Of a DNA stretch of 64,000 bases, positions 11,965-49,397 are shown one piece after another. The notes under the pieces were generated by a model. That model did no database searches. It was given only the letters and a program-made list of their open reading frames with translations, and had not been told where the DNA came from. Source of the stretch: a virus. The stretch covers positions 39,304 to 103,303 of the IMG/VR virus record IMGVR_UViG_3300045988_148533. One strand, written 5' to 3'. Numbering within the stretch: position 1 is the first letter of the stretch; every line of letters begins with the position of its first letter. The position numbers and the translations under genes were made by a program.

Positions 11965-12201
11965 TCAGTATTTAATTATTCTGTTCTCCCTGTATGTATA
12001 TGTCGTGCGAGCGAGCAGCTCGCCACTGTCGTCGTAAATTTCGCTCAGTACCTTGGTTAGGGTTCTGGGAGTGTTCAGTCGCATCTTGCGCACCGCAAAC
12101 ACCTCGGCCTCCAGAGCGGACTGGGCCTCCGTGCAGAGGAAAGCCTTAGTTTCCACTCTGTCCTTCTTGAAACTTGTTATAACTACCTTTGCCATGGCCA
12201 C
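11965..12201 (-). CDS. hypothetical protein
   Basis: 78-aa ORF. Confidence 0.45.
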   Translation of the reverse strand: MAMAKVVITSFKKDRVETKAFLCTEAQSALEAEVFAVRKMRLNTPRTLTKVLSEIYDDSGELLARTTYTYRENRIIKY

Positions 12202-12206
12202 CCCTC

Positions 12207-12686
12207 CTATTTTCTGGTTATTTCAAACTGTATCTTAATAATTACCTGTCCACCTGTTCCCTGCCTGCTCTCCATCACTGAGTAGGAATTTATGCTGACG
12301 GAGGCATTAAATTTTTCAGGAATGACCTTTTCCAGTCTCCTGGCCATCCTGTCAGCCTTGGCACTTGCCCTGCCGTATCCGGACTCGTACTTTATATAGG
12401 TAAAATCCTCCGCTGTGTCAATATCGTAGGTGAGGAGGGCATGGCTCTGGAAGGAGTCGTTCACGCGGCTCAGTGACACACGTGTGTCAGCACCGCTGAG
12501 ATTCAGGTGGAGGGCTGGAAACAGCTTCTCCACGTGTGAGGCTATCTCCACAGCGTCCTCTGTGGCACGCTGCTGAAGCAGCATACAGGCTCTCATTTCC
12601 CGTATCCTAATTTCCATGTCCTCATTTCTGTCGTTAAGTACCTTTGTCAGGCTTTCTCTTGTACTGCTGTTAATTTCTCTTTTCAT
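12207..12686 (-). CDS. hypothetical protein (start trimmed to MKREINS)
   Basis: The track ORF extends into the promoter cassette. The ATG at 12684-12686 lies 27 nt downstream of the -7 box. Confidence 0.5.
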   Translation of the reverse strand: MKREINSSTRESLTKVLNDRNEDMEIRIREMRACMLLQQRATEDAVEIASHVEKLFPALHLNLSGADTRVSLSRVNDSFQSHALLTYDIDTAEDFTYIKYESGYGRASAKADRMARRLEKVIPEKFNASVSINSYSVMESRQGTGGQVIIKIQFEITRK

Positions 12687-12705
12687 GGCTCGTTTTGTTA
12701 TTGAT

Positions 12706-12763
12706 TTACGGTGCAAATATAGTCCGATTAATGATATCAACCAAGAAAAATCTTGAAAATTTC
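12706..12763 (-). promoter_or_regulatory. phage promoter cassette copy
   Basis: The minus strand reads GAAATTTTCAAGATTTTTCTTGG-N19-TATATTTGCACCGTAAATCAATAACAAAACGAGCC followed by ATG. Confidence 0.7.
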
Positions 12764-13049
12764 AATAATTTCTTGACATCGTCAAAATAAAAAGTTTCGT
12801 TTTGACGAGCCGAGTTTCGTTTTCCGTTTTTCGGGATGGTAACTCTTCCGTTACTTTGCCCTCTCCTCGGCAGTGAACACAGGCGTTCCACGACTCCGAA
12901 ACTCTCCGTCTAACCCCCTCAAGAGCGCGTATCACTGCACCGTCAACAAAGTTAGGGGACGATTCTCCGAGTTTTCCGTTCCCAAAACTCTGTACCCCTG
13001 CGTCCATGTGGACAAATTGCGAATTCGTCCAATGGGTGAGTCCGTTTTT

Positions 13050-13705
13050 CGTCTCTCCATGCCCCTGTACCCTGTTCTCCACGTGGAGAATCATACCCTC
13101 CACGCCTGCTTCTCCACACTCTCCATGGTATAACGAAAAGTTATCGTGGAGAGACAAAATTAGGCGTGGAGAAGGCTGTTTTCGGCAATTTTGCGATTTC
13201 TCCAAAACGGACCCACAGTCACCCTGCGCTTCGGTTGCCCTTAGGGGAAGTAGCGACCGTTTTCGCAAAGTCTCCAGCCATAACATTTTCTTATAGCTTG
13301 GACAACTTTTACACCTATGGACAGCGAAAATAGGAGAAAGTTTCGTTCCGTGACATTTACCCCTGCTGCATGGAGAAACGAACAGTTTCTCCACACCCAT
13401 CCTCCATAACTTATAATCCGTAAGTTTTGATGTATGCTTGACTTACAATTTATAACTAAATGAGCCTATGAACTTACAATCTATAAGTTTGTACAGCGGA
13501 AACGAGTTACTATTTGTTACATCGCTGGTTATTAGGGAAAGTTCCTCTCCTCGCTGATATAGTCAGCCTGTCGGTCAAATAAGCGAAAAGGGCCGAGAAC
13601 CGATGTAGTTCTCAGCCCACGGCCATGAAATTAACTATACGGATTATAAACGTCTCCACAGGCCCGACACGTACCCTGTGGAGGTATGAGTTGACGAGTG
13701 GAGGG
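13050..13705. repeat. iteron-like array of TCTCCAC / GTGGAGA motifs (both orientations)
   Basis: - At least 12 exact or one-off copies: 13076, 13083, 13098, 13111, 13120, 13146, 13166, 13199, 13271, 13371, 13388, 13653, 13678 and 13698.
- A 16-bp perfect palindrome, TTCTCCACGTGGAGAA, at 13075-13090.
- An inverted repeat CTCCACAGG-N13-CCTGTGGAG at 13654-13683. Confidence 0.6.
13404..13489. repeat. AT-rich segment with direct and inverted repeats
   Basis: - ACTTACAATTTATAA (13441-13455) and ACTTACAATCTATAA (13472-13486) are direct repeats with a 31-nt period.
- AACTTA-N7-TAAGTT lies at 13408-13426.
- TTATAATCCGT (13411-13421) is the reverse complement of ACGGATTATAA (13639-13649). Confidence 0.55.
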
Positions 13706-14040
13706 AAAGGGTTAGGAGAAGGAGCATATCACTGAAAAACTGACCCCTCTAAAATAATTTTACCGACCCCTCCTGACTCTCCAAAATAATCTTACTAACC
13801 GCTCTAAACTATCTAAAAACCCCTTTTTCCATGTCCCACTCTTAACACTCAAACCAGCCCATTTCCCTGCTCCCCTCCAAACCATCTACCGCCTCCTAAG
13901 CCCATTTCCTTTCTTTCCATTACCTCCATATATACCCTCAGTGAAGAGTACTGATAGGCAATGGTAGAAGGATGGAGTGGATGGATAGGGTGTGGATTCG
14001 GGGTAATGGATTAGGGGTCAGAGAAGTAGACTATGATGGA

Positions 14041-14063
14041 GAACCGACCTGTTCGGTCGGTTC
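14041..14063 (-). terminator. 9-bp perfect stem-loop 77 nt downstream of the sigma factor gene
   Basis: GAACCGACC pairs with GGTCGGTTC around a 5-nt loop. There is no U-tract. Confidence 0.4.
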
Positions 14064-14139
14064 ACTATCGGAAAGGGCTCTCTGAAAGGCGTTTATCAAC
14101 AATTTCCAGTCAGGAAGGAACGGTTCGCAGTCGAAACTT

Positions 14140-14766
14140 CTAATCCCCCTCCGAAAACCTTATCGAAAACTCACTCACAAGCACTGGGTCTGCTGCTGCA
14201 AGTCTCCTAAACAGACGCTTCGCTCTGTGGCACAGACGATGTGCCTCCCGTTCCTCCATACCGCACATCGCTCCCACCTCATCATACGGCATCTCGTACA
14301 CGTAGTGCAGGCGCAGAACCTTTGCCAGCTCCGCAGGCATCTCATCCAGCACAGCGGATATCCTCCTGCTGTTCTCATTCCTCTCTGCCTCCTCCTCAGG
14401 CGTAACCCCGTCGGGGTCGGGCAGCTGGAACTCCTGCTCATCGTCAGGGTCCCCGACGGGTGCGTCAATGCTTGTAAGGGTCAGCCGCTTCTTCCTTACG
14501 TAGTCTATGGCGCAGTTGCGTCCTATCCTCACGAGCCATGCGCTGAGCTGATATGTAGGGGTATAGGTGTCGAGCCTGTCAAAGGCCTTTGTGAATGTCT
14601 CCGAAACTATGTCCTCTATTGCAAAGGGGTCAGGCACTCTCTTATATACGTGCCACATCACCATGTTCTTGTATTTCCTGTATATCTTCTGGTAGGCACT
14701 CTGGTCTCCGCAGAGTGCCCTCTGCACGTAGTAGAAGTCGGTGCGCTTGTTGCTCTCCTGTTTCAT
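14140..14766 (-). CDS. sigma-70 family (ECF-type) RNA polymerase sigma factor
   Basis: Region 2 reads IVSETFTKAFDRLDTYTPTYQLSAWLVRIGRNCAIDYVRKKR. Region 4 reads LDEMPAELAKVLRLHYVYEMPYDEVGAMCGMEEREAHRLCHRAKRL. Confidence 0.85.
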   Translation of the reverse strand: MKQESNKRTDFYYVQRALCGDQSAYQKIYRKYKNMVMWHVYKRVPDPFAIEDIVSETFTKAFDRLDTYTPTYQLSAWLVRIGRNCAIDYVRKKRLTLTSIDAPVGDPDDEQEFQLPDPDGVTPEEEAERNENSRRISAVLDEMPAELAKVLRLHYVYEMPYDEVGAMCGMEEREAHRLCHRAKRLFRRLAAADPVLVSEFSIRFSEGD

Positions 14767-14789
14767 TTTCCTATATTGTTTTTCTTTGG

Positions 14790-15392
14790 TTATTCACTCA
14801 ACTGCCTGTGCGGATTGCGGTCACGGCTTATCACGTTGCTAAGGGTGCTCACCGCCAGCACCTCAGCCATGTCCGGCTCCTTTCTGTCGGCACTGTCATC
14901 CCTGTACTTCTCCCACTCAGCATCCTCCTCACAGGGGTACAGGCTGTAACGCGCGATGTAGGCCGACTGGAACAGCTTGCGCAGTCGTCTCCTCTCACGC
15001 TGGTAGTTATCCCTGTGCCATTCCCACAGATTGTTCAACTCAATATACTCAGCCTCCGTCATGGGGGCCTCAATTATATTGTAGTTGGCATCAGCGGTGC
15101 GGTATATCTTCACCTCATTCAAGTAGCGGGCATTGGCTCCATACAGGCTCGTCCACAGCTGCAAGAACAGCTTTACGACGGTGCTCCTGACGCGCCAGCT
15201 CCGCAGCCGCTTTTCATCGTCAAACATCTCCTCAACGGTTATGCCGTAACGGCTGCACAGGCTCTCAAGCATTCTCTGTGCATTGACCTGCTCACCGCCC
15301 ACCCCTCTCAGGGCGAGCTCCCTTAGCTTTGTCAGCTTCACCCTTACTGACTCGGGTATCTCAACAGTGTTAATTTCCATGGCCTTAATCAT
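14790..15392 (-). CDS. hypothetical protein
   Basis: 200-aa ORF immediately upstream of the sigma gene. Confidence 0.5.
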   Translation of the reverse strand: MIKAMEINTVEIPESVRVKLTKLRELALRGVGGEQVNAQRMLESLCSRYGITVEEMFDDEKRLRSWRVRSTVVKLFLQLWTSLYGANARYLNEVKIYRTADANYNIIEAPMTEAEYIELNNLWEWHRDNYQRERRRLRKLFQSAYIARYSLYPCEEDAEWEKYRDDSADRKEPDMAEVLAVSTLSNVISRDRNPHRQLSE

Positions 15393-17839: not shown

Positions 17840-17901
17840 TGTTTACAGGCGCAAAATTGGGTTTTTAAGATTGGATATCCAAGAAAAATCTTGAAAATTT
17901 C
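17840..17901 (-). promoter_or_regulatory. phage promoter cassette copy (-7 box CAATTTTG variant)
   Basis: The minus strand reads GAAATTTTCAAGATTTTTCTTGG-N19-CAATTTTGCGCCTGTAAACAAAACG. Confidence 0.6.
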
Positions 17902-17915
17902 AATAAAAATCGTAA

Positions 17916-25092: not shown

Positions 25093-26556
25093 TTATTTCT
25101 GACAATATATTAGATTTTCCTTTGCTCTCGTTATACCCACGAACTTCAAACACTTCTCCGCATACAGCTCCAGTTCCGTGCTTGCATACTTGCTCGGCAG
25201 CAGCTCCGGACACAGAAAGTACACGTTTCTCGCCTCAAGCCCCTTGGATTTGTGTATAGTGCTGAGTATTATTCCAGTATTGTCGGCATTCGCGACAAAT
25301 ATCTCATGTATCTTGCTGCGCACCGTATCAAGGTCTCCAAAGTAGTCATACAGGTCGAGAAGGATAGCCACCTTCTCATCAGCCTTCTCATACTTCTCCG
25401 TCTTCATGGGGTTCTTCACACCTTTCTTCATCAGCTTGCGTATAATGTCATCAAGCATCCTTTCAAAGTCATAGATGGAGCCAACGCTGTCTATCATACC
25501 TACAAGCTCGTCGCCCAGTTCCTTTCCAAGAATCGTGCATTTCTTTCCCTTCTTGATTAACTTCAGAAAAGCCTCCACCAGAGGTGCATTGTTGCGACAT
25601 ATAATGTAGTCACCGCCCTCAGCGTTCATGTAGTCACCGTAGGACACAGAACCCTTAATTGCATTGGGGGCTGAGAATATCTCTCCTGGAAACACCTTTG
25701 CAGCCTCATCGACTATGTCCATGGCGCATCGGTAGGTGACGCTCAACGGTAGAACTACTGTATTCGGTGCATTCTGTATCTCGTGCAGGCTGTCCAGATT
25801 GCTGCCCATAAAGGAGTATATGCTCTGCTTCGCATCCCCGACGGCAACAGTGCGTCCGTGAGGAGTTCGAAGCTTCTTTACAAGAGAATACTGCAAAGGA
25901 GAAATATCCTGACTCTCGTCAAGCATCACTACATTGTAGTGCTTCATGTCGCTGTCCTCCAAATATTTCACTGTATAGTACAGCATATCAGTGTAGTCCA
26001 TCGTGAGCTTGCCTGAACATCCTCCGGCAAAGAATCGCTCCATGTCGGCAGTATCCTTCATATACAGCTTGATGGCACGTTCCGCAATATCCTCATTGAC
26101 ATCCTCACCGTACCTGTCTGCAAGTGCTATAATATCAGGCACATCCGGTGCCACAAGATTAAACCTCATCAGGTCATATATTCGGGATATCTTCATGCAC
26201 AGTCCCGGAATTCTCTTAGGGTGGACACCCTTCCAGTCAAGCCCCTTTTCTGCAATGGTAAAGTACTTTGCCTCGTTCACCGCTATGTTGCAGTGATATG
26301 CCTTCAAAAAAGAGGACAGGCCGCACGAGTGCAGTGTGCTCGCCTTTACAGTACTCGGCAGGCGACTGGATAGTTCCTCCGCTATTGACTTGTTGAACGC
26401 CAAGAAGATAGCTCTGCGAGCAGGAGGCGTGGCGTTCGCGAGCTGCACAAGAGTAGTAGTCTTGCCGCTCCCTGCTGTGGCACTCACGAATATGTTCTTG
26501 TTCGTGGTGCGATATGTATCCAGAACTTTCTGTTGGTATTTGTCTAACTTCATCAT
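25093..26556 (-). CDS. UvrD/Rep-family SF1 DNA helicase
   Basis: Walker A SATAGSGKTTTL, plus VMLDESQDISP, VTYRC and TIHKSKGLE. Confidence 0.8.
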   Translation of the reverse strand: MMKLDKYQQKVLDTYRTTNKNIFVSATAGSGKTTTLVQLANATPPARRAIFLAFNKSIAEELSSRLPSTVKASTLHSCGLSSFLKAYHCNIAVNEAKYFTIAEKGLDWKGVHPKRIPGLCMKISRIYDLMRFNLVAPDVPDIIALADRYGEDVNEDIAERAIKLYMKDTADMERFFAGGCSGKLTMDYTDMLYYTVKYLEDSDMKHYNVVMLDESQDISPLQYSLVKKLRTPHGRTVAVGDAKQSIYSFMGSNLDSLHEIQNAPNTVVLPLSVTYRCAMDIVDEAAKVFPGEIFSAPNAIKGSVSYGDYMNAEGGDYIICRNNAPLVEAFLKLIKKGKKCTILGKELGDELVGMIDSVGSIYDFERMLDDIIRKLMKKGVKNPMKTEKYEKADEKVAILLDLYDYFGDLDTVRSKIHEIFVANADNTGIILSTIHKSKGLEARNVYFLCPELLPSKYASTELELYAEKCLKFVGITRAKENLIYCQK

Positions 26557-26571
26557 GGCCCAATTAACGTA

Positions 26572-27114
26572 TCAAGGCTGCACCCCAAAGGCATCCTCCC
26601 GACTTATTCTTATATTCTCATGCCCATCAGCTATCAAGTCCTCATCATAGAAGTCCTGCTGCCGATAGTCTGCAAGGGCATCCGCACAGGCATTGCCGTA
26701 TATAATGTCATCGCACAGGTCAGCACCGTGGCCTCTAACCCATGTCACTCTAAAGTTCACCCCTGCTGTTCGCCTTGTTTCCATAGCAGCCACTATCCTC
26801 TTCCACAGGTCGCTGTTCGCCACACCCTGCCATCCGTTCAGTCTCCACTTGCGAATCCACCCCCTGCGGAAGGCGTTTACAAGGAACTGACTGTCGCAGT
26901 AGATGGTGACATTGCAGGGCAGTGTGCCGTCTATCGCCTCTATTCCCCTCAATAAGGCCATCATTTCCATTCGAGGAGTAGTAGTATTCCACCACCCACC
27001 ATGCATCGCTATAATGCGCCTTTTTGACACAATATAGACACCCCACCCTCCATAGTGATGAGGTTCCTTGGCATTACAGCTGCCGTCAGTAAATATGCTA
27101 ATCTCTTGCTTCAT
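26572..27114 (-). CDS. rnhA: ribonuclease HI
   Basis: FTDGSC, MEMMALL, IYCDSQ and HG...NACADALA supply the DEDD catalytic pattern. Confidence 0.85.
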   Translation of the reverse strand: MKQEISIFTDGSCNAKEPHHYGGWGVYIVSKRRIIAMHGGWWNTTTPRMEMMALLRGIEAIDGTLPCNVTIYCDSQFLVNAFRRGWIRKWRLNGWQGVANSDLWKRIVAAMETRRTAGVNFRVTWVRGHGADLCDDIIYGNACADALADYRQQDFYDEDLIADGHENIRISREDAFGVQP

Positions 27115-40802: not shown

Positions 40803-42824
40803 TTACATTAACGCAAATATCAGCATTCGTGTTGTCATATCAGCACGAATTATGTTCACACCTTTCTTGCTGTCGTTGGACAGTGAACCATTAATTAGAA
40901 TAATGTTGCTCTTAGCCTTTTTCACGAACTCCTGAAGCCTGTCATAATCCCCTCCAAATATCAGGACTTCTATGAACTCATAGTTGCTTTCAAGCGTCAT
41001 CTTGCAGAATGTCTTAGGGGCTGTTCTACGACCACCCTTTGTCGTCTTAACCTCAACATCAGCCACATAACCACCCACAACAACCATTCCTTCTCCAGCC
41101 TTGACTTTCCGAGAGGTATCATTGCACTGCTCCACCGTCACATAGGAATACTCATCTGGGAAGCTACCTCTGTTATTCTCATACAGCCTATCATACCTGA
41201 AGAACGCGAACCCAGAAAGCTGCTTCTGCATAAGTCGCCACCACCACCCATCCTCACGATGCACGTATGCACCATTGAGGAGAGGGTCACTGTCATCAAT
41301 CTTAATCCTGTTCTTCTCAAAATACCTTCGCAGCAGAGACACCCTTTCCCGTACATCGGTAATGTTCTCTATGCTGTCAAACGCACCGCTCAGAATGAGG
41401 TTCTTAATTACTCGGCTGTTCACTGCCGTACCCTTCCAGTTATGGCGACTGACAAAGTCCTCAATTGACCAGTACTGCCCATTCTCATCTCTCTCCTTGA
41501 GTATCTGGTCAGCAGCCTTGTCGGCTACCTGTTTAACACCCATAATTGACCAATATAAAGACTGTGTCTTAAAGTCTATCACAACATTCTTAGTAGAGAT
41601 GTTAATATCCACAGGTTTCACTTCACACACGCCTGTCTTATTAATCTCAGCAATATAGCGTGGATAGTCATCATCCGTAGCATACTTAAAGGCCACACTC
41701 CAGTACTCAATAGGATAATGAACTTTCAGCCACTGAGATATATACCCTGTAATTGCATAGGCAGCTGCGTGACTCCGATTAAATAGGTAGAGGGATGCTT
41801 TATCAATAGCTTCCCACACACTCTCAGCATAATCATGGCTGACGCCAAAATGCTCCATATAATATGGGGTGAACCTCTCATGATACTGATGCAGTGCCTC
41901 ATATTTCTTCTTCACCATCGCCTTACGCACATCATCAGCCTCAACCAATGACAAACCTCCTAAAACCTTACACAACTCCATAACAGACTCCTGATATATC
42001 ACAAGGCCAAATGTCTTCTCAAGCACTTTTTCAGCACCCACCCAATATTTCACCTTACTCGGGTCTGCCTTACGAATAATATAATCCTCATGGAATCCAT
42101 TCTCCATTGCTCCAGGACGATATAGGGAAATGGCAGCTATCAGGTCTTCAATGTTGCGTGGCTGCATCTGCTTACAGTATCCAGTCAACCCTCTACTGCC
42201 AAAGTGGAAATTATCCTCATTCCAGCCGTTGCAGAAATACCTGTACACCTCTCTATCATCAAGAGGTGTGCTGTATATATCCACGTCCACACCCTCATTC
42301 TCCTTTATTAAGGTAATCATCTCCTGAAACTTATCCAGCTGCTTCACACCCAGAATATCCTGTTTCAAGAATCCAGCACTGTCCATCTCACCACCTTCCC
42401 ATTCGCTGACATATTCCTCACCCTGTTTTCTGATTGGAACCCAGTGGAACATATCGTGTTCCTTAGGAAAAATCATCGTAGCACAGGCATGAATGGACTG
42501 TGCCTTGGGGGCAGGCATAAGCAGCATCACCTCATTCACTATATCAGGGTGCTCTGTCACGAATTTCTTAACATTCTCATCCGCACAGGCTATCTTGAAC
42601 AGGTCTTCCGGCTTACGGTCACTAACATCAAATACTTTCATCATCTCATTCACCGTCTGGAATTCCAACCCGTATATTCTGGACATGTCCTTAATGGCCG
42701 CTCGCAGTTGCAGTGCGCTGTACGTACCCACGGAACATACTCTACTCCACCCGTATCGTTCTTCCATATATTTCTTCACCCGAGGTCTATCAACCGAGGG
42801 GAAGTCAACATCGATTTCACTTCG
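40803..42824 (-). CDS. dnaE: DNA polymerase III alpha subunit, exon 2 (catalytic DxD motif to C-terminus); 5-prime boundary approximate
   Basis: The frame is open from 42833 and reads WWGRSEIDVDFPSVDRPRVKKYMEERYG. EIDVDF corresponds to the PDxDxDF catalytic aspartates, yet it lies upstream of the first possible start (GTG at 42779). The remainder is co-linear with DnaE fingers and OB domains. Confidence 0.75.
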   Translation of the reverse strand, partial: RSEIDVDFPSVDRPRVKKYMEERYGWSRVCSVGTYSALQLRAAIKDMSRIYGLEFQTVNEMMKVFDVSDRKPEDLFKIACADENVKKFVTEHPDIVNEVMLLMPAPKAQSIHACATMIFPKEHDMFHWVPIRKQGEEYVSEWEGGEMDSAGFLKQDILGVKQLDKFQEMITLIKENEGVDVDIYSTPLDDREVYRYFCNGWNEDNFHFGSRGLTGYCKQMQPRNIEDLIAAISLYRPGAMENGFHEDYIIRKADPSKVKYWVGAEKVLEKTFGLVIYQESVMELCKVLGGLSLVEADDVRKAMVKKKYEALHQYHERFTPYYMEHFGVSHDYAESVWEAIDKASLYLFNRSHAAAYAITGYISQWLKVHYPIEYWSVAFKYATDDDYPRYIAEINKTGVCEVKPVDINISTKNVVIDFKTQSLYWSIMGVKQVADKAADQILKERDENGQYWSIEDFVSRHNWKGTAVNSRVIKNLILSGAFDSIENITDVRERVSLLRRYFEKNRIKIDDSDPLLNGAYVHREDGWWWRLMQKQLSGFAFFRYDRLYENNRGSFPDEYSYVTVEQCNDTSRKVKAGEGMVVVGGYVADVEVKTTKGGRRTAPKTFCKMTLESNYEFIEVLIFGGDYDRLQEFVKKAKSNIILINGSLSNDSKKGVNIIRADMTTRMLIFALM

Positions 42825-43917
42825 CCCCCACCATTACTGATGGGGGCATAACATCAGGCAGGGATACCGGAACGAATCCCTGCCTGAACTCCTTTTCAAT
42901 TTTTACTATTTTCGACATACTTAAAAAATTTACCTATCTGCCCTGAATATAACCCCATTTCCTTCATACCATTAGAATCATACCCCTGTTTCCAAAGCTG
43001 AACCATGCGGTATGCACCATAATATTTGGAGTCACACTCATTTAATATATAACGTTCTATCTCCTTTTGCGTAGACAATTTTCTGTCCGAAATTAAATAT
43101 CTATATTTACGAATTTTCTTCAACCCATACATTCCAAGAAAATCCGCTTCACGCATATAACTGTAAAAATTACATTCCCCTGTCCATAAATCATACACCC
43201 AACATGATTTCGCCTTCACATTTTTACCGCCCTTGCTTTTACCATTCTCCCTTCTCTTAATGGAAAGATTTTTCTTTTGTTCATCAGTCCATCTACGACC
43301 ATAATTAGGATTGGTCTCACCCTCAAAACGCGGAGGAAGCCCACCTCCCACCATCATATTTAAAACATCTGGTCGAGAAATAAAGGCCTCATCCACAATC
43401 CTCGCTTCGGACTCTAAAGCATCCTTAATGGAATGAAAATAACAAATAATCCTCTTTTTAAAATTCAAGTACCCATATTGTAGCAATGCTTTTCTAAATT
43501 TCGTTTCCTTCTCCTTATGACGTTTATATAAAACACCGCTTTTCCTTATTAAACACCCATTCCCTATATAAGTGTCAAATTCCGGGTGTAACCCCTTATA
43601 AACCCTGACACCAATATAAATATCATTAGTTATTACACACTTGGTTTCGTACAAATAAACCACGCGACGACCACCCAAATCAACGGGTATTTCAGAATAA
43701 TTAATACACTTGCTTAAATAGTCCATAATTCAATAAATTTAAGCAAACACTAAAGTCAAAATCAATAAGCAAGCAATTCGTCATTGACTTTAAAATCCTT
43801 TGCCTTGGCAATTATCTTATTTCCACCCCTGAACAAAACAAGTTCTTTATTTTCATCAAATTCCAAGATTCTGCCATTATCAAGAGTAATTTTAACAATA
43901 TTCTGCTTACGTACATA
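42825..43917 (-). mobile_element. intron-like insertion (probable group I intron) carrying a GIY-YIG homing endonuclease; boundaries +/- ~10 nt
   Basis: - It separates FERFLNKGRVG (exon 1) from SEIDVDF (exon 2), which are contiguous in bacterial DnaE.
- Candidate junctions obey the rule that the exon ends in U and the intron ends in G.
- Two strong hairpins occupy the 3-prime 70 nt. Confidence 0.6.
42896..43726 (-). CDS. GIY-YIG homing endonuclease (I-TevI-like, NUMOD-type linker)
   Basis: - VVYLYETKCVITNDIYIGV supplies GIY-N11-YIG.
- The mid-section block is KFRKALLQYGYLNF...ESEARIV.
- NPNYGRRWTDEQKKNLS is NUMOD3-like.
- The gene is visibly AT-rich. Confidence 0.8.
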   Translation of the reverse strand: MDYLSKCINYSEIPVDLGGRRVVYLYETKCVITNDIYIGVRVYKGLHPEFDTYIGNGCLIRKSGVLYKRHKEKETKFRKALLQYGYLNFKKRIICYFHSIKDALESEARIVDEAFISRPDVLNMMVGGGLPPRFEGETNPNYGRRWTDEQKKNLSIKRRENGKSKGGKNVKAKSCWVYDLWTGECNFYSYMREADFLGMYGLKKIRKYRYLISDRKLSTQKEIERYILNECDSKYYGAYRMVQLWKQGYDSNGMKEMGLYSGQIGKFFKYVENSKN

Positions 43918-45372
43918 ACCAACTCGGCCCTTATTCAAGAACCTTTCAAACAGCAGCCCATACTCCAGAGGGTCAAGTTTTGTAATCCCTATAAGATAGG
44001 AAATAAGACATCCTCCAGCACTGCCCCTACTTATACCTGTCAATATGCCGTTTTCATGACACCAATTGACAATGTCTCGAGTTATTAGGAAGTAGTCAAT
44101 TACATTACCGAACTTAATCACGTCTATTTCCCTCTCTAATCGCTCCAATACGACATCTTCACCCCACCTGTCAACCAACTCAGGATGAGCAGCCAGACCT
44201 TCCTCTATGAGGCCTAAAAACATCTCCTCATTGGTTGTGTACTTAGCAGCCTCATCAGGCTTCATCTCGTACTTAGGAAGATGCCTGTTGGCTGTGTCTA
44301 TCGTAAAGTCACACCCATCCGCAATGTCATTCAACAGCTGCATTGACTCGAGAAACAACTCTGCACCCACCTCTTCTTCAGAGAATAACTGCAAGAATTC
44401 CTCATACACAGCCTCATTTGACTTAAAATACTGATTATCACTTGCATACCCCATTCTGCCTGCAATACGATGCAGCCTATCCGGAATATCCGCATATTCA
44501 GCATCTATGTACCATGCATCACTAAACACCAGAGGCACAAGATTAGTGTCATAGAAGAATTTCTTAAGGTTCTTCAAGTACCACTCATCATGCCTCTCAT
44601 CACTGTAAGCACACGTGTCAAGCTGATAGAAAGCTGTATCAATATTCGCCTTACGAAATTCTTCGTAATCAAGTGTCTTAGGGTCAAGAATAACAGTAAT
44701 ATCATCATTGTTTCCTACAATTTCCCTAAATCTGTCAAGTGCCACCCACCCTGAATTGACACAGTTAATCTCAGTGTTGATTGTTAAAAGGGTCTGCCAC
44801 CCTTCAAAATTTCGGGCATAGACTTTCACTACAAAACGCACATCACTGTCAATGTCATACACGGTACACCCCATCCCGATGATGGGTTTAATGCCGAACT
44901 TCTGACATTCCATCTGAAATTTTAAAGCCCCTGCAAGAGAATTAACTTCACAGACACCCAGATTCCTTACCCCAAGAAACTTAGCCTTGCGACACCAATC
45001 CGTGTAAGTACCGCTTCCTGAAAGAATCTCATACTGTCCATGAACCCCCAAAAAAGTGTCCGTAGGAAGAGGAAAGGTACTTTCACCGAGGTATTTCAGC
45101 CTGTTCAACTTGACATCATTCTCCTGCCCCCTGTCCAGCCAGTACCACACCCCTCCGAACCTATACACGTACCTGTCGGCAAGTGTTTCATTATCCTCAT
45201 GTGGTTCAGTGTTGTATGGCTTGCCTATAAAGCAAAAGCCGTCATCAAACAGTGAACCGTCATCGGCAGGCACATACAGCTCATACGTCCTGTCCCCTAT
45301 TTCCACAACGGCATCAGACACCTCTGTGTAGGCTATACCATTTTCCTTGAGATATGCTATCAGTTCTTCCAT
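43918..45372 (-). CDS. dnaE: DNA polymerase III alpha subunit, exon 1 (PHP + palm N-part); 3-prime boundary approximate
   Basis: GISRGSAGGCLISYLIGITKLDPLEYGLLFERFLN matches the conserved DnaE palm block. The track ORF reads 51 codons further into the insertion before its stop at 43762. Confidence 0.75.
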
Positions 45373-46016: not shown

Positions 46017-46542
46017 ACATCGAAATATATGCAAGAATACGTGGAAAATCCTTACCGTGCCTGTGAATCAGCTTCATACACGTATCACGTGTCTCAAGTA
46101 TTTCCTTACTGCGATTACCATACGTTATCTCCTTGATACAGAAAATCAGCAGTTCAAGATAGTCGCAGCACTTAAACAGCGCATACTGTCTCTCATTCAA
46201 TGCAGCCTTGATATTCTCATCAGAATATTTCTCGAGATGAGTGCCCTGTGTCAATTCCTTCTCTATAACAGCCCATGCCCTCTTAGTTTCCTCACTGAAA
46301 TTCTTAACAGGATACGTCAGGTCGCCTGTAATGGCTTCCACGGCATCATGCTGAAGCACAATGTCAAACTCGTGCATGGTATATGCCACATCCTCAATTG
46401 AGGCCCACCACTTGAAAAGAATGGCGGTACGATAGCAGTGCTCCGCTATATTGTAGTGCTGATGGTGAAATGTACCTGTGAATCTTTCCACGTTGGACAT
46501 CCTGTACAGATTCTGTATGTCCTCTATAATATTACGCATCAT
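46009..46542 (-). CDS. HD-domain 5-prime-deoxynucleotidase (YfbR-like)
   Basis: NIAEHCYRTA ... LQHDAVEAITGDLTYPVK gives the H...HD...D pattern. Confidence 0.7.
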   Translation of the reverse strand: MMRNIIEDIQNLYRMSNVERFTGTFHHQHYNIAEHCYRTAILFKWWASIEDVAYTMHEFDIVLQHDAVEAITGDLTYPVKNFSEETKRAWAVIEKELTQGTHLEKYSDENIKAALNERQYALFKCCDYLELLIFCIKEITYGNRSKEILETRDTCMKLIHRHGKDFPRILAYISMYE

Positions 46543-47639
46543 AGTCCAAACACCTCATTAAGAATAGGGTTCTCAAATCTTTCCTGTGCAACAGGACATC
46601 CAAAGTGGTGAACCTTTTCCCACTTCCGAGCAAATACACGTATCCAGTCACGCTCCAGAGCGGACTTCGCCTTTTCAAGAGTATATTCCTTCATGCAGTC
46701 AACACCTTCTCTGAACAGTCTTTCCTGAGTGGCAATGCTAACCATAGCGTCATCAAAGTCAAACAGACTATTGAACGCCTTAGGATAGTAATAGCTGTGA
46801 ACAGGGAATTCCTCTCCATAGTACTTATTAGCGACATCCTCAACGAGAGGCACAAAATCCTCATACACGTGCAGATTGTCTGCCTTGTGATAGTACACAC
46901 CCACAGGCACACCCAGAATATTCGCAACATATTCCTGCATTAGGGTGAAGTTGAAAACATTCACTGCACTAAATCCCCATATCAGGTCATTGCTGCGAAT
47001 GTCCACATAACAGTTCAGCTTACCGTTCACAATCATAAAGTGAATGGAACGTGTACAGGGTGTATCCTTGGTAGGGAGAACCTGAAGATTCGTGTCAACA
47101 GGTTTCAGCCTAAACAGAAAGTCATCTGCAATGGGGTTGTGAATTGTGATGCACGCCTCACGAGTGGTTATATCCTCCTTGAACTTTTCCAAGACAAATC
47201 TAAGCTGGTCAACTCTACCCTTTGCAAGCAGCGGTGACTGCCAATCCTCCATGTACTGATTACCTGTCATTACATCGCTGTCCTTATACTGCATTACTCT
47301 CTTGAATGAATCATAGGCTCTTATGCGAGGGCCGTATCCAGCTCTCATATACTTGCCGTCATCCGAGAAATTATTCAAATTAGTGACATAGGCAGCAGGC
47401 ATTGTCATGCTGTTACTGCCTAATGCAAGCCACAGAGACTCCACCCATCCGAGTGTCCTGTTCCACTTGCGCTCTGGAACAGTAACATATCTCTCACATG
47501 GATTGGTTATAGCTATCATCACAGGCTCTGGAAACTCATAGCACCTGTGGCCACGCCTCATCTGTTCAATGCCGTGTTCCTTCAGTTCACGACAGAGGCG
47601 TATAAATGCCTGATTAAGACTGTCAAATTCAAAATACAT
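46539..47639 (-). CDS. divergent thymidylate synthase (ThyA) family enzyme; candidate dUMP hydroxymethylase or thymidylate synthase
   Basis: TPCTRSIHFMIVNGKLNCYVDIRSNDLIWGFSAVNVFNFTLMQEYVA aligns by eye to the ThyA block PCH..QFYV.DGKLSCQLYQRSxDxxLGxPFNIASY. The catalytic Cys and the uracil-reading Asn are retained. There is an extra C-terminal extension of about 90 aa. Confidence 0.65.
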   Translation of the reverse strand: MYFEFDSLNQAFIRLCRELKEHGIEQMRRGHRCYEFPEPVMIAITNPCERYVTVPERKWNRTLGWVESLWLALGSNSMTMPAAYVTNLNNFSDDGKYMRAGYGPRIRAYDSFKRVMQYKDSDVMTGNQYMEDWQSPLLAKGRVDQLRFVLEKFKEDITTREACITIHNPIADDFLFRLKPVDTNLQVLPTKDTPCTRSIHFMIVNGKLNCYVDIRSNDLIWGFSAVNVFNFTLMQEYVANILGVPVGVYYHKADNLHVYEDFVPLVEDVANKYYGEEFPVHSYYYPKAFNSLFDFDDAMVSIATQERLFREGVDCMKEYTLEKAKSALERDWIRVFARKWEKVHHFGCPVAQERFENPILNEVFGL

Positions 47640-47641
47640 AA

Positions 47642-48682
47642 CTAAATATTTTTAAGTAATACACTATTTCTATCGGGAAGTTTACATTTACCCCATTTGG
47701 GAGGGAAAACGTACTCCAAGCCACCATGAGGAGAATACATTCTCTTTATCCTCTCCTTGCTACCTGACTTGAAGGTAGCTCCAAGCCCCTTTGCATACTT
47801 GCTAATCTCACAGAAGCAGTTCTGCAAGTTGGTAAGCGTTGGAACAGGTTCCCACGGCAGAGGATGCCACTCCATGCCTGACTCTCTGCAGAAATCGTGC
47901 ATAAGTTCCTCAAAATTACTCTGAAGCCACCTTATTGCACCGACATAGTCATACTTCTTACCGTTAGCACCCTCAAATACCCACCGAATCCCCCTAAGAC
48001 TTCCTGGCCCTGTAACCACGAAATCATTCTCTGTAAAGTTGAATATAGAGGAGTAATTAAGGTCTATCGCGTACTGCTGCGCTATGAAATCACCATATAT
48101 GCGCATCGAGCGAAATTCCCTATATAGAGCCTCAAAGGAATCCGCCCTCAAAAAGTCCCACAGCCTGTCATTTCCAAAAATTTCATTCTGAAAAACTCTG
48201 AAATATGCCCTGTGCTTACTCAGCCCCTCCATCCAGCTGTACTCCGGCAGCTGATAGAAATATCCGGTAACAATGTATGCACTGTTGTATATGTTCACAC
48301 CCTCTTCAAGCAGTGTGTCCACATAGTCAGCCATCGCCTCAAGATAAGTACCTGTGTTCACATTATAGCGTATATCCCCGAATTCCTTTTCAAGGAGCTG
48401 CCACGTCTCAATCTTGTTAAAATGCTTGAACAACAGCACTCTAAAGAATATGTCCTCAGGGGTGTACTGCCTGCCATTATACAGAACATTCCGAATAAGG
48501 TACTGACTGACCCTGTCAAGACACCTGTAAACATTCGTAAAGGAATACTCACAGAGTATAGGGTCTGATGTCCACGGCTGCTCATCACCCCTGTACTTGT
48601 GCCAGAAAATATTCATCCGTTCACACATCCAGTACAGCAGCCATGTTAGATTCTCTTTATTCGGGATTATTCTGCTCTGCAT
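47642..48682 (-). CDS. aGPT-Pplase-like protein (putative DNA base hypermodification enzyme); start uncertain
   Basis: The motifs PWTSDPIL, FTNVYRCLDRVSQ and GDFIAQQYAIDLNYS...GPGSLRGI match my recollection of the alpha-glutamyl/putrescinyl thymine pyrophosphorylase family. This is not verified by search. Confidence 0.45.
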   Translation of the reverse strand: MQSRIIPNKENLTWLLYWMCERMNIFWHKYRGDEQPWTSDPILCEYSFTNVYRCLDRVSQYLIRNVLYNGRQYTPEDIFFRVLLFKHFNKIETWQLLEKEFGDIRYNVNTGTYLEAMADYVDTLLEEGVNIYNSAYIVTGYFYQLPEYSWMEGLSKHRAYFRVFQNEIFGNDRLWDFLRADSFEALYREFRSMRIYGDFIAQQYAIDLNYSSIFNFTENDFVVTGPGSLRGIRWVFEGANGKKYDYVGAIRWLQSNFEELMHDFCRESGMEWHPLPWEPVPTLTNLQNCFCEISKYAKGLGATFKSGSKERIKRMYSPHGGLEYVFPPKWGKCKLPDRNSVLLKNI

Positions 48683-49397
48683 ACCTATTCTGATTGATAT
48701 AGTTACCCTTATTAACGTATTCTCTAAATTCCCCACAAATTTCGGGAACACCAAAGAATTCAAAGATGCTGCACCCCAAATCCCACACAGGAGAACTGTA
48801 CGCTTCCTCCTTAATCACCACATTTGCCCCCTCAGCATTCAGCAGTGCAGCTTCCTCTCGTGACTTAGCAATGTCACTCTCAAAGCCACTTCTCTTGTGC
48901 CACATTGCGTCCCCCTTCGGAGGTTTTCCCGAACGGTACACCACCCTGTCATAGTACTCCTCATGTTCCTTTTCTGTAAAGTCATAGCGCACATATAGGA
49001 TGTTCATGAATTCACACACGGCTATAAGTTCCATCGGTCTAAGCCTCCATGAGACTGACGTGCCTGCCCCCTCCAGAAGAACATTCATCCTCTTCATGCC
49101 TACTTCCTTTAGGAAGTCTGACACACCTGCCGAATTGACAAATCTGCTTGTAACACTGTCCAGCCCCTGCCACCGCCTTACACCTTGATTTTCATAGAAC
49201 TTGCCTATCACAATTAAGTTGAATTCCGGAACATATACCCCCACTTCCTTCTCCTTGCCCTCAGAATTGACCCATCTGTACGGCTGAAATTCCACACCAA
49301 TGCTTTCCAGAAAATCAAGAAAGCAGTAAACCCGAGTGGATTTACCGCTTCCAGACGTACCCTTGACAAGGACTATGGTTCCGTAGTCCTTTATCAT
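48657..49397 (-). CDS. stand-alone P-loop kinase (candidate 5-hmdU DNA kinase)
   Basis: Walker A VKGTSGSGKST and Walker B-like MNVLLEGAG. The functional call rests on genomic context only. Confidence 0.4.
   Translation of the reverse strand: MIKDYGTIVLVKGTSGSGKSTRVYCFLDFLESIGVEFQPYRWVNSEGKEKEVGVYVPEFNLIVIGKFYENQGVRRWQGLDSVTSRFVNSAGVSDFLKEVGMKRMNVLLEGAGTSVSWRLRPMELIAVCEFMNILYVRYDFTEKEHEEYYDRVVYRSGKPPKGDAMWHKRSGFESDIAKSREEAALLNAEGANVVIKEEAYSSPVWDLGCSIFEFFGVPEICGEFREYVNKGNYINQNRYAEQNNPE

What the first reader, a model, noticed from the sequence alone, without database searches (positions are those of the whole stretch)
12764..14139. 1.4-kb gene-free region downstream of the sigma factor gene with iterons, a 16-bp palindrome and an AT-rich repeat core: candidate origin of replication or regulatory hub
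**Seen in the sequence**
- This is the longest non-coding stretch in an otherwise tightly packed window.
- At least 12 copies of TCTCCAC/GTGGAGA occur in both orientations within ~650 bp.
- They include TTCTCCACGTGGAGAA (13075-13090), CTCCACAGG-N13-CCTGTGGAG (13654-13683) and GAGAAAC-N5-GTTTCTC (13373-13391).
- Between the two iteron clusters lies an AT-rich core (13404-13489). It holds a 15-bp direct repeat with a 31-nt period and an 11-bp inverted repeat whose partner is 215 bp away.

**Established knowledge**
Iterons flanking an AT-rich unwinding element are the classic architecture of plasmid and phage origins.

**Inference**
The region is an ori, or alternatively a pac site or a cluster of operators for a phage DNA-binding protein.
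Basis: partly seen in the sequence, partly recalled or inferred. Interest (0 to 1): 0.65.

Follow-up and report, generated by a model that had tools for sequence, protein, structure and literature searches.

The report
Conserved non-coding control region in gut phage
The 1.4-kb gap after the phage sigma-factor gene is truly non-coding and conserved across a family of uncultured gut phages, but its best-conserved parts are RNA features, not the repeats first flagged, so a replication origin is possible, not shown.

Summary
The repeats, palindromes and AT-rich core are at the stated coordinates. The TCTCCAC cluster is the densest in the window: 7 exact 7-mers and about 15 degenerate copies.

The 212-aa ORF is not a gene. 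Its substitutions show no codon periodicity, and it is frameshifted or deleted in relatives.

The gap has two parts, read on the minus strand, which is the gene-sense strand.
- **Part 1 (14139-13580)** is the untranslated tail of the early sigma operon. It holds a stem-loop with an invariant GAACA loop, where 8 of 10 stem pairs covary across six lineages. A C-rich tract follows, then the most G-rich, C-poor tract of the window. That tract is hypervariable (about 40% divergence where flanks differ by 1-4%). An intrinsic terminator ends the part.
- **Part 2 (13579-12770)** is modular DNA. It holds three phased 19-bp palindromes, a 95-nt near-invariant core and the inverted-repeat TCTCCAC cluster.

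Two palindromes are deleted in natural variants. The cluster is absent from a sister lineage, and its motif positions are no more conserved than their surroundings.

My best guess is a transcription-coupled, R-loop-type replication origin (about 0.35). A purely regulatory RNA or antitermination module is nearly as likely (about 0.3).

The parts
14018..14085 (-). Composite stem-loop ('block A'). Basal stem 14085-14079/14024-14018, middle stem 14069-14067/14037-14035, top stem 14063-14055/14049-14041, invariant loop GAACA at 14054-14050.
   Evidence: RNAalifold consensus over 8 sequences. For the top stem across six lineages, 8 of 10 pairs change on both sides, 96.7% of cells are paired, and 0 of 500 shuffles reach the observed score. 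U.G pairs are possible only on this strand. The same hairpin sits on the gene-sense strand in 7 distant loci.
13955..14030 (-). C-rich, G-poor tract on the sense strand.
   Evidence: It has the strongest C-over-G skew of the 64-kb window: -0.52 in 150 nt.
13745..13939 (-). Extremely G-rich, C-poor, hypervariable tract with loose TTTAGAGNGG repeats.
   Evidence: Skew is +0.82 in 150 nt (window mean 0.18, sd 0.15), the extreme of the window. Every lineage has the same composition, with skew 0.48-0.97. Divergence is about 40% with many indels, while the flanks differ by 1-4%. There is no second copy in the window.
13690..13744 (-). Conserved pyrimidine block TTTTCAGTGA..CCTTCTCCTAACC.TTTCCCTC.
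   Evidence: It is conserved in the L030/L031 lineage, whose sigma is 71% identical. Divergence is 1-3% among three of the four close relatives compared.
13654..13683 (-). Hairpin CCTCCACAGG-N12-CCTGTGGAG. It is specific to the window's lineage.
   Evidence: It is replaced by a different hairpin around the conserved GGAGACGTT in L030.
13580..13618 (-). Intrinsic terminator: a 12-bp stem, a 5-nt loop and a U-run.
   Evidence: A hairpin plus T-run sits at the same place in three lineages, with a different stem sequence in L028. Folding is better on the sense strand in 3 of 5 sequences, equal in 1 and worse in 1. The T-run exists only on the sense strand.
13495..13579 (.). Conserved block after the terminator (CCCTAATAACCA..GTAACAAATAGTAAC).
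   Evidence: It is conserved in L030/L031 and L028 and partly in L021.
13408..13489 (.). AT-rich core (30% G+C) with three 19-bp palindromes AACTTAyrrATTrTAAGTT at 13471-13489, 13440-13458 and 13408-13426, spaced 31 and 32 bp. A degenerate fourth copy lies at 13636-13653.
   Evidence: The units are unique to this place in the window. They are kept in 5 close relatives; two are present in L028 and one in L021. Units 2 and 3 are deleted in L042 and L045.
13371..13393 (.). Palindromic hairpin TGGAGAAAC-GAACA-GTTTCTCCA. The GAACA loop is on the plus strand here.
   Evidence: In L025 and L036 the stem changes A:T to G:C on both arms, and the loop is reverse-complemented so that GAACA is on the sense strand. 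It is deleted in L042 and L045.
13165..13259 (.). Near-invariant core (..CCCCTAAGGGCAACCGAAGCGCAGGGTGACTGTGGGTCCGTTTTGGAGAAATCGCAAAATTGCC..).
   Evidence: Divergence is 1.1-4.2%, against 3.8-15.8% at sigma third codon positions. A 40-nt stretch is 87.5% identical in L030/L031.
13036..13216 (.). Nested inverted-repeat cluster that carries most TCTCCAC/GTGGAGA copies, including the 16-bp palindrome at 13075-13090. The outer arms are 13204-13216 and 13036-13048.
   Evidence: z = -4.5 folded as minus-strand RNA and -5.2 folded as plus-strand DNA. There are no compensatory changes; Watson-Crick pairs changed to G.U 6 times, to A.C 8 times and to other mismatches 4 times. The cluster is absent from L030/L031, which carry 5-6 (GC)TGACGC copies in both orientations at the same place.
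12800..13003 (.). Dispensable non-coding segment.
   Evidence: It is deleted in L025, and L036 has a 20-nt deletion inside it.
12714..12808 (-). Hairpin at 12779-12808, then the Bacteroidota-type early promoter of the next operon. The 28-bp box lies at 12741-12768 and the -7 element TATATTTG at 12721-12714.
   Evidence: The same extended box precedes at least six other minus-strand genes. It is conserved in all lineages.
12762..13400 (-). 212-aa ORF. It is spurious, not a gene.
   Evidence: Substitutions by codon position are 8/8/6, 14/11/10, 18/21/14 and 34/31/30, against 1/0/8, 2/0/21, 5/4/31 and 10/3/33 for sigma. It is truncated to 139 and 124 aa, or not called at all, in relatives. It has no Pfam or PHROG match. 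No alternative-code ORF covers the gap.

Best explanation
**Shown**
- The interval is a truly non-coding, two-part control region. It sits at the boundary between two early operons of a large virulent phage that probably infects Bacteroidota.
- Part 1 (14139-13580, minus strand) has RNA-level features on the gene-sense strand. These are a covarying stem-loop with an invariant GAACA loop, a C-rich tract, an extremely G-rich hypervariable tract, a conserved pyrimidine block and an intrinsic terminator.
- Part 2 (13579-12770) is modular DNA. It holds phased palindromes in an AT-rich core, a near-invariant 95-nt core and a lineage-specific cluster of short inverted motifs. It shows no RNA covariation.

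**Inferred: the mechanism I think most likely**
1. The region is a transcription-coupled origin of replication of the ColE1 / T4 oriF-oriG / mitochondrial-OH kind.
2. Host RNA polymerase starts at the early promoter at about 15.75 kb and reads through the sigma gene into the G-rich tract.
3. The G-rich RNA forms a persistent hybrid (R-loop) with the C-rich template.
4. The hybrid is processed, and the phage encodes an RNase HI that could do this.
5. The processed RNA primes leading-strand synthesis in the direction of transcription.
6. Synthesis runs into the easily melted, hairpin-rich part 2, where the helicase and primase would load.

Only the composition of the G tract would matter. That would explain why it is hypervariable in sequence but constant in skew.
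For: **Non-coding and conserved**
-.

**Sense-strand RNA features**
- The hairpin covaries: 8 of 10 pairs change on both sides, and 0 of 500 shuffles reach the observed score.
- It is found only on the gene-sense strand in 7 distant loci.
- A terminator with a U-run is kept in three lineages.

**G tract**
- It has the most extreme G-over-C skew of the 64 kb.
- The skew is kept in all 12 lineages examined while the sequence is scrambled.
- G-rich transcripts over C-rich templates are the known requirement for stable R-loops at ColE1, T4 and mitochondrial origins (PMC4412123, read).

**Transcription input**
- A host-type early promoter lies upstream.
- The scan covering 12000-15000 finds no terminator before 13618.

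**Downstream features**
- An AT-rich 30% G+C core lies downstream.
- Palindromes and hairpins follow, with z = -4.5 to -5.2.
- The two lineages carry different short motifs at the same position: GTGGAGA against TGACGC.

**Phage toolkit**
- RNase HI (PF00075), a UvsX-like recombinase, helicases, a DnaE-type polymerase and a ligase. This resembles the T4 toolkit.

**Skew**
- The uniform skew of the window is compatible with unidirectional replication co-oriented with transcription.
Against: - There is no direct evidence of initiation.
- There is no skew inflection.
- No initiator gene lies adjacent.
- The replication genes lie 11-30 kb away.
- Distant relatives (L004, L018, L002) keep the hairpin and the G tract. 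They lack the AT-rich core, the palindromes, the motif cluster and a canonical terminator.
- Two palindromes and one hairpin are dispensable.
- A canonical G-quadruplex motif is absent from the window's tract and present in only 6 of 12 lineages.
- An RNase H gene is common in phages for removing Okazaki primers, so it is weak support.
- A conserved hairpin followed by a terminator is explained equally well by transcriptional control.
Confidence: 0.35

Rival explanations
1. The region is a transcription-control module with no replication role. The GAACA stem-loop would be a protein-recognition hairpin in the nascent early transcript, working like a lambda nut/boxB site or an RNA stability or processing site. 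It would decide whether polymerase stops at the terminator at 13590 or reads on. Part 2 would be a long regulated leader and operator region for the next operon.
For: - The stem covaries while the pentaloop is invariant.
- GAACA fits the GNRA-like pentaloop with an extruded fourth base that is known for lambda boxB (GAAAA/GAAGA). This is established knowledge, not a test made here.
- The element always sits at the end of an early operon and before a fresh early promoter.
- An intrinsic terminator lies about 450 nt downstream in three lineages.
- The palindromes are phased at 31/32 bp, as operators often are.
Against: - It does not explain the extreme, composition-conserved, hypervariable G tract.
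- No conserved boxA-like sequence lies upstream of the hairpin.
- No N-like protein has been identified.
- The stem is 9-10 bp, against 5 bp in boxB.
- Distant relatives have no canonical terminator downstream of the hairpin.
- Part 2 has no host-type promoter of its own with the extended box.
Confidence: 0.3
2. The region is a classic iteron-type origin. A phage initiator would bind the TCTCCAC repeats and/or the 19-bp palindromes and melt the AT-rich core.
For: - The motif cluster is real and unique to this place.
- Three 19-bp palindromes are phased at three helical turns inside a 30% G+C core.
- The sister lineage has a different short motif at the same place, as expected if the sites co-evolve with a binding protein.
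- P4 ori/crr uses an octamer in both orientations (from memory, not tested).
Against: - The motif copies are mostly inverted-repeat arms with variable geometry.
- They are no more conserved than the neighbouring bases.
- The cluster is absent from L030/L031.
- Two of the three palindromes are deleted in circulating variants.
- There is no adjacent initiator gene.
- There is no perfect DnaA box; four 8-of-9 matches arise from the same motif.
- There is no skew inflection.
Confidence: 0.1
3. Part 1 is a stand-alone, trans-acting non-coding RNA of about 550 nt. It would be released from the sigma transcript and act as a protein sponge, a decoy or a counter-defence RNA. The G-rich domain would be a fast-evolving interaction surface.
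For: - Sense-strand structure, covariation and a defined 3' end.
- Family-wide conservation with a hypervariable central domain.
- Fold z-score of -3.0.
Against: - There is no Rfam family, even at E up to 10.
- No dedicated promoter was found between the sigma stop codon and the hairpin.
- The G tract does not covary with the adjacent pyrimidine tract.
- It leaves part 2 unexplained.
Confidence: 0.12
4. The region is a packaging (pac/cos), partition or other DNA-handling site.
For: Clustered short repeats and palindromes in non-coding DNA.
Against: - The terminase gene lies about 40 kb away, at 53557-56913.
- The ends of related contigs do not coincide with the element.
- No partition genes were seen.
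Confidence: 0.05
5. Part 2 is largely decaying or neutral DNA at a hotspot of gene gain and loss. The repeats would be by-products of palindrome-driven template switching. Only short blocks would be functional.
For: - Distant relatives carry small genes between sigma and the element.
- There are large natural deletions at microhomologies.
- One hairpin loop is flipped between close relatives.
- Motif positions are not preferentially conserved.
Against: - The core at 13165-13259 is 1-4% divergent, and the cluster evolves at about 0.6 times the divergence of sigma third codon positions.
- No remnant of the relatives' small genes is detectable.
Confidence: 0.05
6. The 212-aa ORF (12762-13400, minus strand) is a real gene, so the gap is only about 740 nt.
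For: Gene callers called it in three assemblies.
Against: - Substitutions are flat across codon positions.
- Close relatives have 1-nt, 20-nt and about 200-nt indels.
- It is truncated or absent in relatives.
- It has no family match.
- Its only homologues are near-identical copies.
Confidence: 0.02

Closest known systems
R-loop-primed origins: ColE1 RNA II/ori, phage T4 oriF/oriG, mitochondrial OH (CSB II)
   Same: - An upstream promoter is followed by a G-rich transcript over a C-rich template, then an easily melted or hairpin-rich region.
- RNase H is available.
- The transcribed, structured lead-in is about 550 nt, similar in length to RNA II.
- The architecture is as described in PMC4412123.
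   Different: - No initiation has been shown.
- The G tract here is about 200 nt and hypervariable.
- An intrinsic terminator separates it from the AT-rich core.
- The AT-rich core is missing in distant relatives.
- There is no sequence similarity to any of these origins.
Iteron origins (lambda ori, P1/R6K/F plasmid origins, P4 ori/crr)
   Same: - There are clustered short repeats, including three phased 19-bp palindromic units, next to an AT-rich core.
- The two lineages carry different motifs at the same place.
   Different: - The repeats are mostly inverted arms of 7-9 bp, not tandem 17-22-bp iterons.
- They are not preferentially conserved and are partly dispensable.
- No initiator gene lies adjacent, and the region is not inside an initiator gene as in lambda.
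Lambda-type nut sites (boxA + boxB)
   Same: - A stem-loop in an early transcript has an invariant purine-rich pentaloop compatible with a GNRA-like fold.
- Its stem covaries.
- It lies upstream of a terminator.
   Different: - The stem is twice as long.
- There is no conserved boxA.
- No N-like protein has been identified.
- It sits at the 3' end of an operon rather than just after a promoter.
Large structured phage-associated RNAs (GOLLD, ROOL and other Rfam families)
   Same: It is a long, conserved non-coding transcript in a phage genome, with at least one covarying helix.
   Different: - It matches none of the 4227 Rfam models.
- Most of its length is low-complexity and hypervariable rather than ornate conserved structure.

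Membership tests
Iteron-type replication origin | Tandem, directly repeated 17-22-bp iterons that are conserved as binding sites | tested here: not met
   The TCTCCAC copies are 7-9 bp and mostly inverted. They are not more conserved than their flanks and are absent from L030/L031. Three 19-bp palindromes are phased at 31/32 bp, but two of them are deleted in L042 and L045.
Iteron-type replication origin | AT-rich unwinding element next to the repeats | tested here: met
   The stretch 13400-13519 is 30% G+C, against about 47% in the surroundings. It is absent in the distant relatives L004, L018 and L002.
Iteron-type replication origin | An initiator gene adjacent to or overlapping the origin | tested here: not met
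   The neighbouring genes have no Rep, O, DnaA or DnaD-like match in Pfam or PHROGs.
Iteron-type replication origin | Strand-skew inflection, or replication initiation mapped at the site | tested here: not met
   Cumulative GC skew falls steadily across the whole window. Initiation mapping cannot be done with these tools.
DnaA-dependent origin | A cluster of DnaA boxes (TTATCCACA) | tested here: inconclusive
   The region has no perfect box. It has four 8-of-9 matches, against 30 matches (perfect or 8-of-9) elsewhere in the window. Two of the four are TTCTCCACA copies of the repeated motif itself, and one (14093-14101) lies outside the cluster.
R-loop-primed origin (ColE1 / T4 oriF-oriG type) | A promoter-driven transcript enters the site | tested here: inconclusive
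   A host-type early promoter lies at about 15.75 kb, and the scan from 15000 downwards finds no terminator before 13618. This is predicted from sequence only.
R-loop-primed origin (ColE1 / T4 oriF-oriG type) | A G-rich RNA over a C-rich template that can form a persistent hybrid | tested here: met
   Skew is +0.82, the extreme of the window, and is conserved in all lineages. Hybrid formation itself was not tested.
R-loop-primed origin (ColE1 / T4 oriF-oriG type) | RNase H processing and DNA synthesis primed from the RNA 3' end | not testable with these tools
   The phage encodes an RNase HI (26572-27114; PF00075, E = 2e-22). Priming needs experiments.
Lambda-type nut site | A boxB-like hairpin with a conserved pentaloop and a covarying stem | tested here: met
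   The GAACA loop is invariant, and 8 of 10 stem pairs covary.
Lambda-type nut site | A conserved boxA upstream, and an N-like arginine-rich protein | tested here: not met
   No boxA-like block is conserved between lineages upstream of the hairpin. I did not search for an N-like protein.
Known RNA family (Rfam 15) | A covariance-model match | tested here: not met
   No match at gathering scores in the window or in 7 related loci. Only chance-level hits appear at E up to 10.
Protein-coding gene (212-aa ORF) | A substitution bias towards third codon positions, and a reading frame kept in relatives | tested here: not met
   Substitutions are flat across codon positions, and relatives carry frameshifts and deletions.
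Diversity-generating retroelement target | A template repeat elsewhere, plus a reverse transcriptase | tested here: not met
   The 64-kb window holds no second copy of the hypervariable tract.

The most novel reading that the evidence does not exclude
A family of about 105-kb uncultured gut phages, probably of Bacteroidota, carries a previously undescribed non-coding element. It consists of a covarying GAACA stem-loop followed by a G-rich, C-depleted tract that is constant in composition but hypervariable in sequence. In the most novel reading, this element works through a co-transcriptional R-loop. It would either prime phage DNA replication or act as a programmed hotspot of instability or recombination. 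That would make it the first R-loop-type origin described outside T4-like phages and ColE1-type plasmids.
Probability: 0.3. Interest if true: 0.75.

Novelty: new variant of a known kind. Interest (0 to 1): 0.55.

Why it matters
- Origins and non-coding control elements of uncultured gut phages are almost unknown.
- This element is recognisable from sequence alone. Its signature is an invariant-loop hairpin with a covarying stem, followed by a tract with the most extreme strand skew in the genome.
- It is conserved across phages whose sigma factors are only about 40% identical.
- If it is a transcription-primed origin, it gives a handle for replication studies, for reading coverage profiles in metagenomes, and for engineering these phages.
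- If it is an RNA control element, it adds a new phage RNA motif with a defined protein- or RNA-recognition loop.
- The hypervariable tract is also a natural strain marker.
- The result also shows that an eye-catching repeat cluster can be the least constrained part of a region.

Tried and rejected
**Searches that found nothing useful**
- Rfam at gathering and at permissive thresholds, and tRNA/tmRNA scans of the window: nothing.
- DNA search of the phage collection: no match.
- Exact-pattern scans of IMG/VR for two conserved blocks: no match.
- The scan of JGI metagenomes gave one chance 22-nt hit.
- The GTDB genome scan with sigma found only cellular ECF sigma factors, so it gave no prophage and no host clue.
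- The literature search found no description of this element.

**Ideas tested and dropped**
- Alternative genetic codes or read-through ORFs across the gap: none.
- A DGR template copy of the hypervariable tract: none.
- The G-quadruplex idea: the canonical motif is absent from the window's own tract and inconsistent across lineages.
- The long pyrimidine/purine hairpin predicted by MFE: the purine arm is scrambled while the pyrimidine arm is conserved, so no helix-level covariation supports it.
- The RNA structure of the TCTCCAC cluster: stable in silico on both strands, but with no compensatory changes and no strand preference among wobble substitutions.
- TCTCCAC as a promoter element of the phage sigma factor: there are no copies in any other intergenic region.
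- Remnants of the small genes that relatives carry after sigma: none.

**A correction to my own reading**
- I first thought the terminator substitutions in L030 were all wobble-compatible. That was too generous. Folding shows the sense strand is better in 3 of 5 sequences, equal in 1 and worse in 1.

**A lineage I could not complete**
- I tried to recover part 2 of the L028 lineage through a downstream gene. The contig I found starts only at the promoter.
Full report
**Context**

The window comes from a large phage.
- It encodes a GroEL-like chaperonin, a class II ribonucleotide reductase, two helicases and an NAD ligase.
- It also encodes SbcCD, a UvsX-like recombinase, an RNase HI, and a DnaE-type polymerase split by a homing-endonuclease gene.
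- A 5-hmdU DNA kinase, a large terminase and an ECF-type sigma factor are present too.
- Almost all genes lie on the minus strand.
- The polymerase is closest to those of phages of Bacteroidota (Tenacibaculum, Cellulophaga, Chryseobacterium, Bacteroides).
- Promoters have the Bacteroidota form: TTG, about 20 nt, then TAnnTTTG. They sit inside a longer box, GAAATTTTCAAGATTTTTCTTGG, that recurs before at least seven minus-strand genes.
- The finding lies between the sigma gene (14140-14766) and the next gene (12207-12686). That gene has its own copy of the early promoter at 12714-12768.

**Check of the observation**

- All named sequence features are present at the stated coordinates, apart from a one-base error in one spacer.
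- The AT-rich core is 30% G+C.
- The exact heptamer TCTCCAC/GTGGAGA occurs 7 times, not 12. The looser forms reach 10 to 15 copies.
- The cluster is not chance. It is the densest 650-bp window of the 64 kb, where the median is zero. All 21 other copies lie inside coding ORFs, where GTGGAG codes Val-Glu.
- Most copies are arms of inverted repeats. Together they form a nested 180-nt structure (13036-13216) that folds far better than shuffled sequence on either strand (z = -4.5 and -5.2).

**Is the region non-coding?**

- Gene callers called the 212-aa ORF in some assemblies.
- I found related loci by exact look-up of sigma and ORF homologues: L025-L027, L030, L031, L036 and L042-L045.
- Across four close relatives, substitutions in the ORF are flat over codon positions: 8/8/6, 14/11/10, 18/21/14 and 34/31/30.
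- The neighbouring sigma gene shows the strong third-position bias expected of a real gene: 1/0/8, 2/0/21, 5/4/31 and 10/3/33.
- Relatives carry 1-nt, 20-nt, about 150-nt and about 200-nt indels in the ORF.
- No reading frame, even with a reassigned stop codon, covers the gap. No part of the gap shows three-base periodicity.
- The gap is therefore non-coding, yet its length (1.1-1.45 kb) and layout are kept.

**Anatomy from comparison**

I read the region on the minus strand, which is the gene-sense strand. The three lineages compared (the window's group, L030/L031 and L028) have sigma factors 71-100% identical to the window's, and all show the same order of elements.

1. *A composite stem-loop (14085-14018).*
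   - Its top stem encloses an invariant GAACA loop.
   - The same hairpin, with a completely different stem sequence, occurs in seven loci of a more distant group whose sigma is only about 40% identical. It is always on the gene-sense strand.
   - There it lies 1.5-3.6 kb after sigma, behind several small genes.
   - Across six distinct sequences, 8 of 10 stem pairs change on both sides, 96.7% of cells stay paired, and no shuffle of 500 reaches the observed covariation.
   - Several pairs are U.G, which is possible only on this strand.
   - This is the clearest evidence that the element acts as a single strand in the sense orientation, most simply as RNA.
2. *A C-rich tract, then a tract of about 195 nt (13939-13745) that is G-rich and almost free of C.*
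   - These two tracts are the most extreme skews of either sign in the whole window.
   - The G tract keeps its composition in every lineage, with skew from 0.48 to 0.97.
   - Its sequence is scrambled, however. Divergence is about 40% with many indels between genomes whose flanks differ by 1-4% and whose sigma third positions differ by 4-16%.
   - The distant group shows the same pattern.
   - The window has no second copy of the tract, so a diversity-generating retroelement is not the cause.
   - A canonical G-quadruplex motif is not consistently present.
3. *A conserved pyrimidine block and a lineage-specific hairpin.*
4. *An intrinsic terminator at 13618-13580.*
   - All three lineages have a hairpin plus T-run at this place.
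   - In L028 the stem sequence is different.
   - The T-run exists only on the sense strand.
5. *Modular DNA from 13579 down to the next promoter.*
   - A conserved block comes first, then the AT-rich core. The core holds three 19-bp palindromes spaced 31 and 32 bp, a motif found nowhere else in the window.
   - A palindromic hairpin follows. Its loop is reverse-complemented and its stem compensated in two relatives.
   - Next is a 95-nt core that is almost invariant, at 1-4% divergence. Part of it is recognisable in L030/L031.
   - The TCTCCAC cluster comes next, then a 200-nt segment that L025 lacks.

**How the flagged features fare**

- Motif positions are no more conserved than the neighbouring bases (15.7% against 18.0% variable).
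- The whole cluster is missing from L030/L031. Those loci carry five or six copies of (GC)TGACGC, in both orientations, at the same place.
- Palindromes 2 and 3, the flanking hairpin and a conserved 16-mer are removed by a deletion of about 150 nt between CATAGG microhomologies. This deletion is seen in contigs from two different samples.
- The predicted structure of the cluster has no compensatory change. Substitutions at its paired positions favour neither strand: 6 are wobble-compatible on the sense strand, 8 on the antisense strand and 4 on neither.
- Part 2 therefore behaves as DNA with redundant, exchangeable modules around a small essential core. It does not behave as a structured RNA.

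**Interpretation**

Two facts need explaining together.
- A sense-strand hairpin with an invariant loop marks the end of an early operon throughout the family.
- It is followed by a tract for which only composition is conserved.

A G-rich transcript over a C-rich template is the known recipe for a persistent RNA-DNA hybrid. Such hybrids prime replication at ColE1, at T4 oriF/oriG (a promoter plus a downstream unwinding element) and at the mitochondrial heavy-strand origin (PMC4412123).

The phage has the matching tools: an RNase HI, a UvsX-like recombinase, helicases and its own polymerase. An AT-rich, hairpin-rich stretch lies just downstream in the window's lineage.

I therefore rank a transcription-coupled origin first, at about 0.35. 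The steps from R-loop formation onwards are inference.

The uniform skew of the window neither supports nor excludes this. All genes are co-oriented, and a unidirectional origin would leave no inflection.

Nearly as likely, at about 0.3, is a purely transcriptional role. The hairpin would be a boxB-like recognition site that governs termination at 13590, and part 2 would be a regulated leader. That reading explains the hairpin and the terminator, but not the G tract.

The remaining rivals are:
- a trans-acting RNA (0.12);
- a packaging site (0.05);
- largely neutral DNA (0.05);
- a real ORF (0.02).

**Comparison with known systems**

- No Rfam family matches.
- The element is not a member of the iteron-origin class, because several defining features were tested and not met.
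- It resembles R-loop origins in architecture only.
- It resembles nut sites in one hairpin only.
- I file it as a new variant of a known kind of phage cis-control region, with its function unproven.

**Limits**

- All relatives are metagenomic contigs, and the host is not established.
- Only three lineages cover part 1 with a terminator. Only two cover part 2.
- Nothing here measures transcription, hybrids or replication.

Noticed in passing
window 40803-45372 (minus strand): The DnaE-type (Pol III alpha-like) DNA polymerase is split into two ORFs (43762-45372 and 40803-42779). A 276-aa homing-endonuclease gene (42896-43726) and a structured 128-nt spacer (42768-42895) lie between them. This could be an intron or a split gene. 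Rfam found no intron.
   Followed up: partly
window 47642-48763 and 46539-47639 (minus strand): A 5-hmdU DNA kinase domain (PF18723, E = 1.5e-72) lies next to a thymidylate-synthase-like gene. This suggests that the phage hypermodifies thymidine in its DNA.
   Followed up: no
window 53557-56913 (minus strand): The large terminase ORF is 1118 aa. The terminase match covers only the C-terminal part (residues 834-1112), behind a long N-terminal extension of unknown function.
   Followed up: no
window 7614, 11406, 12748, 15806, 16973, 17886, 31156 (plus-strand coordinates of the box): An extended early-promoter box, GAAATTTTCAAGATTTTTCTTGG-N20-TATATTTGCAyCGTAAAACAAAAC, recurs before at least seven minus-strand genes. 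It is a Bacteroidota-type -33/-7 promoter with a conserved upstream and downstream context. A 28-bp stretch is identical at 12741-12768 and 17879-17906.
   Followed up: partly
L028 3489-4911: A sister lineage (sigma 76% identical) carries a tmRNA gene (84 bits) and four tRNA genes upstream of its sigma operon. The window itself has no tRNA or tmRNA.
   Followed up: no
window 12527-12551: Two further TCTCCAC copies, 18 nt apart (TTCTCCACG and ATCTCCACA), lie inside the 5' part of the next gene, just outside the non-coding region. They may be extra sites or may be chance Val-Glu codons.
   Followed up: no
window 13371-13393, compared with L025 5045-5075 and L036 1756-1786: The loop of a palindromic hairpin is reverse-complemented between close relatives (TGTTC against GAACA on the sense strand), and both stem arms change A:T to G:C. 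This is the footprint of a hairpin inversion or template switch. The loop matches that of the family-wide GAACA hairpin.
   Followed up: partly
L042 and L045, against window 13313-13463: A deletion of about 150 nt between CATAGG microhomologies is present in contigs from two samples. L044 has a run of N at the same place.
   Followed up: yes
L001, L004, L006, L007, L011, L012, L014-L016, L022, about 1.4-1.9 kb after sigma, antisense strand: The distant group carries a second, weaker hairpin with a GAACA loop (TTCGTCAGGC-GAACA-GCCTATCGAA, two mismatches). In L001 and L004 it falls in a gap between the ORFs I listed.
   Followed up: no
window 26572-27114 (minus strand): The phage encodes a type 1 RNase H (PF00075), next to a UvrD-like helicase (25093-26556).
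   Followed up: partly
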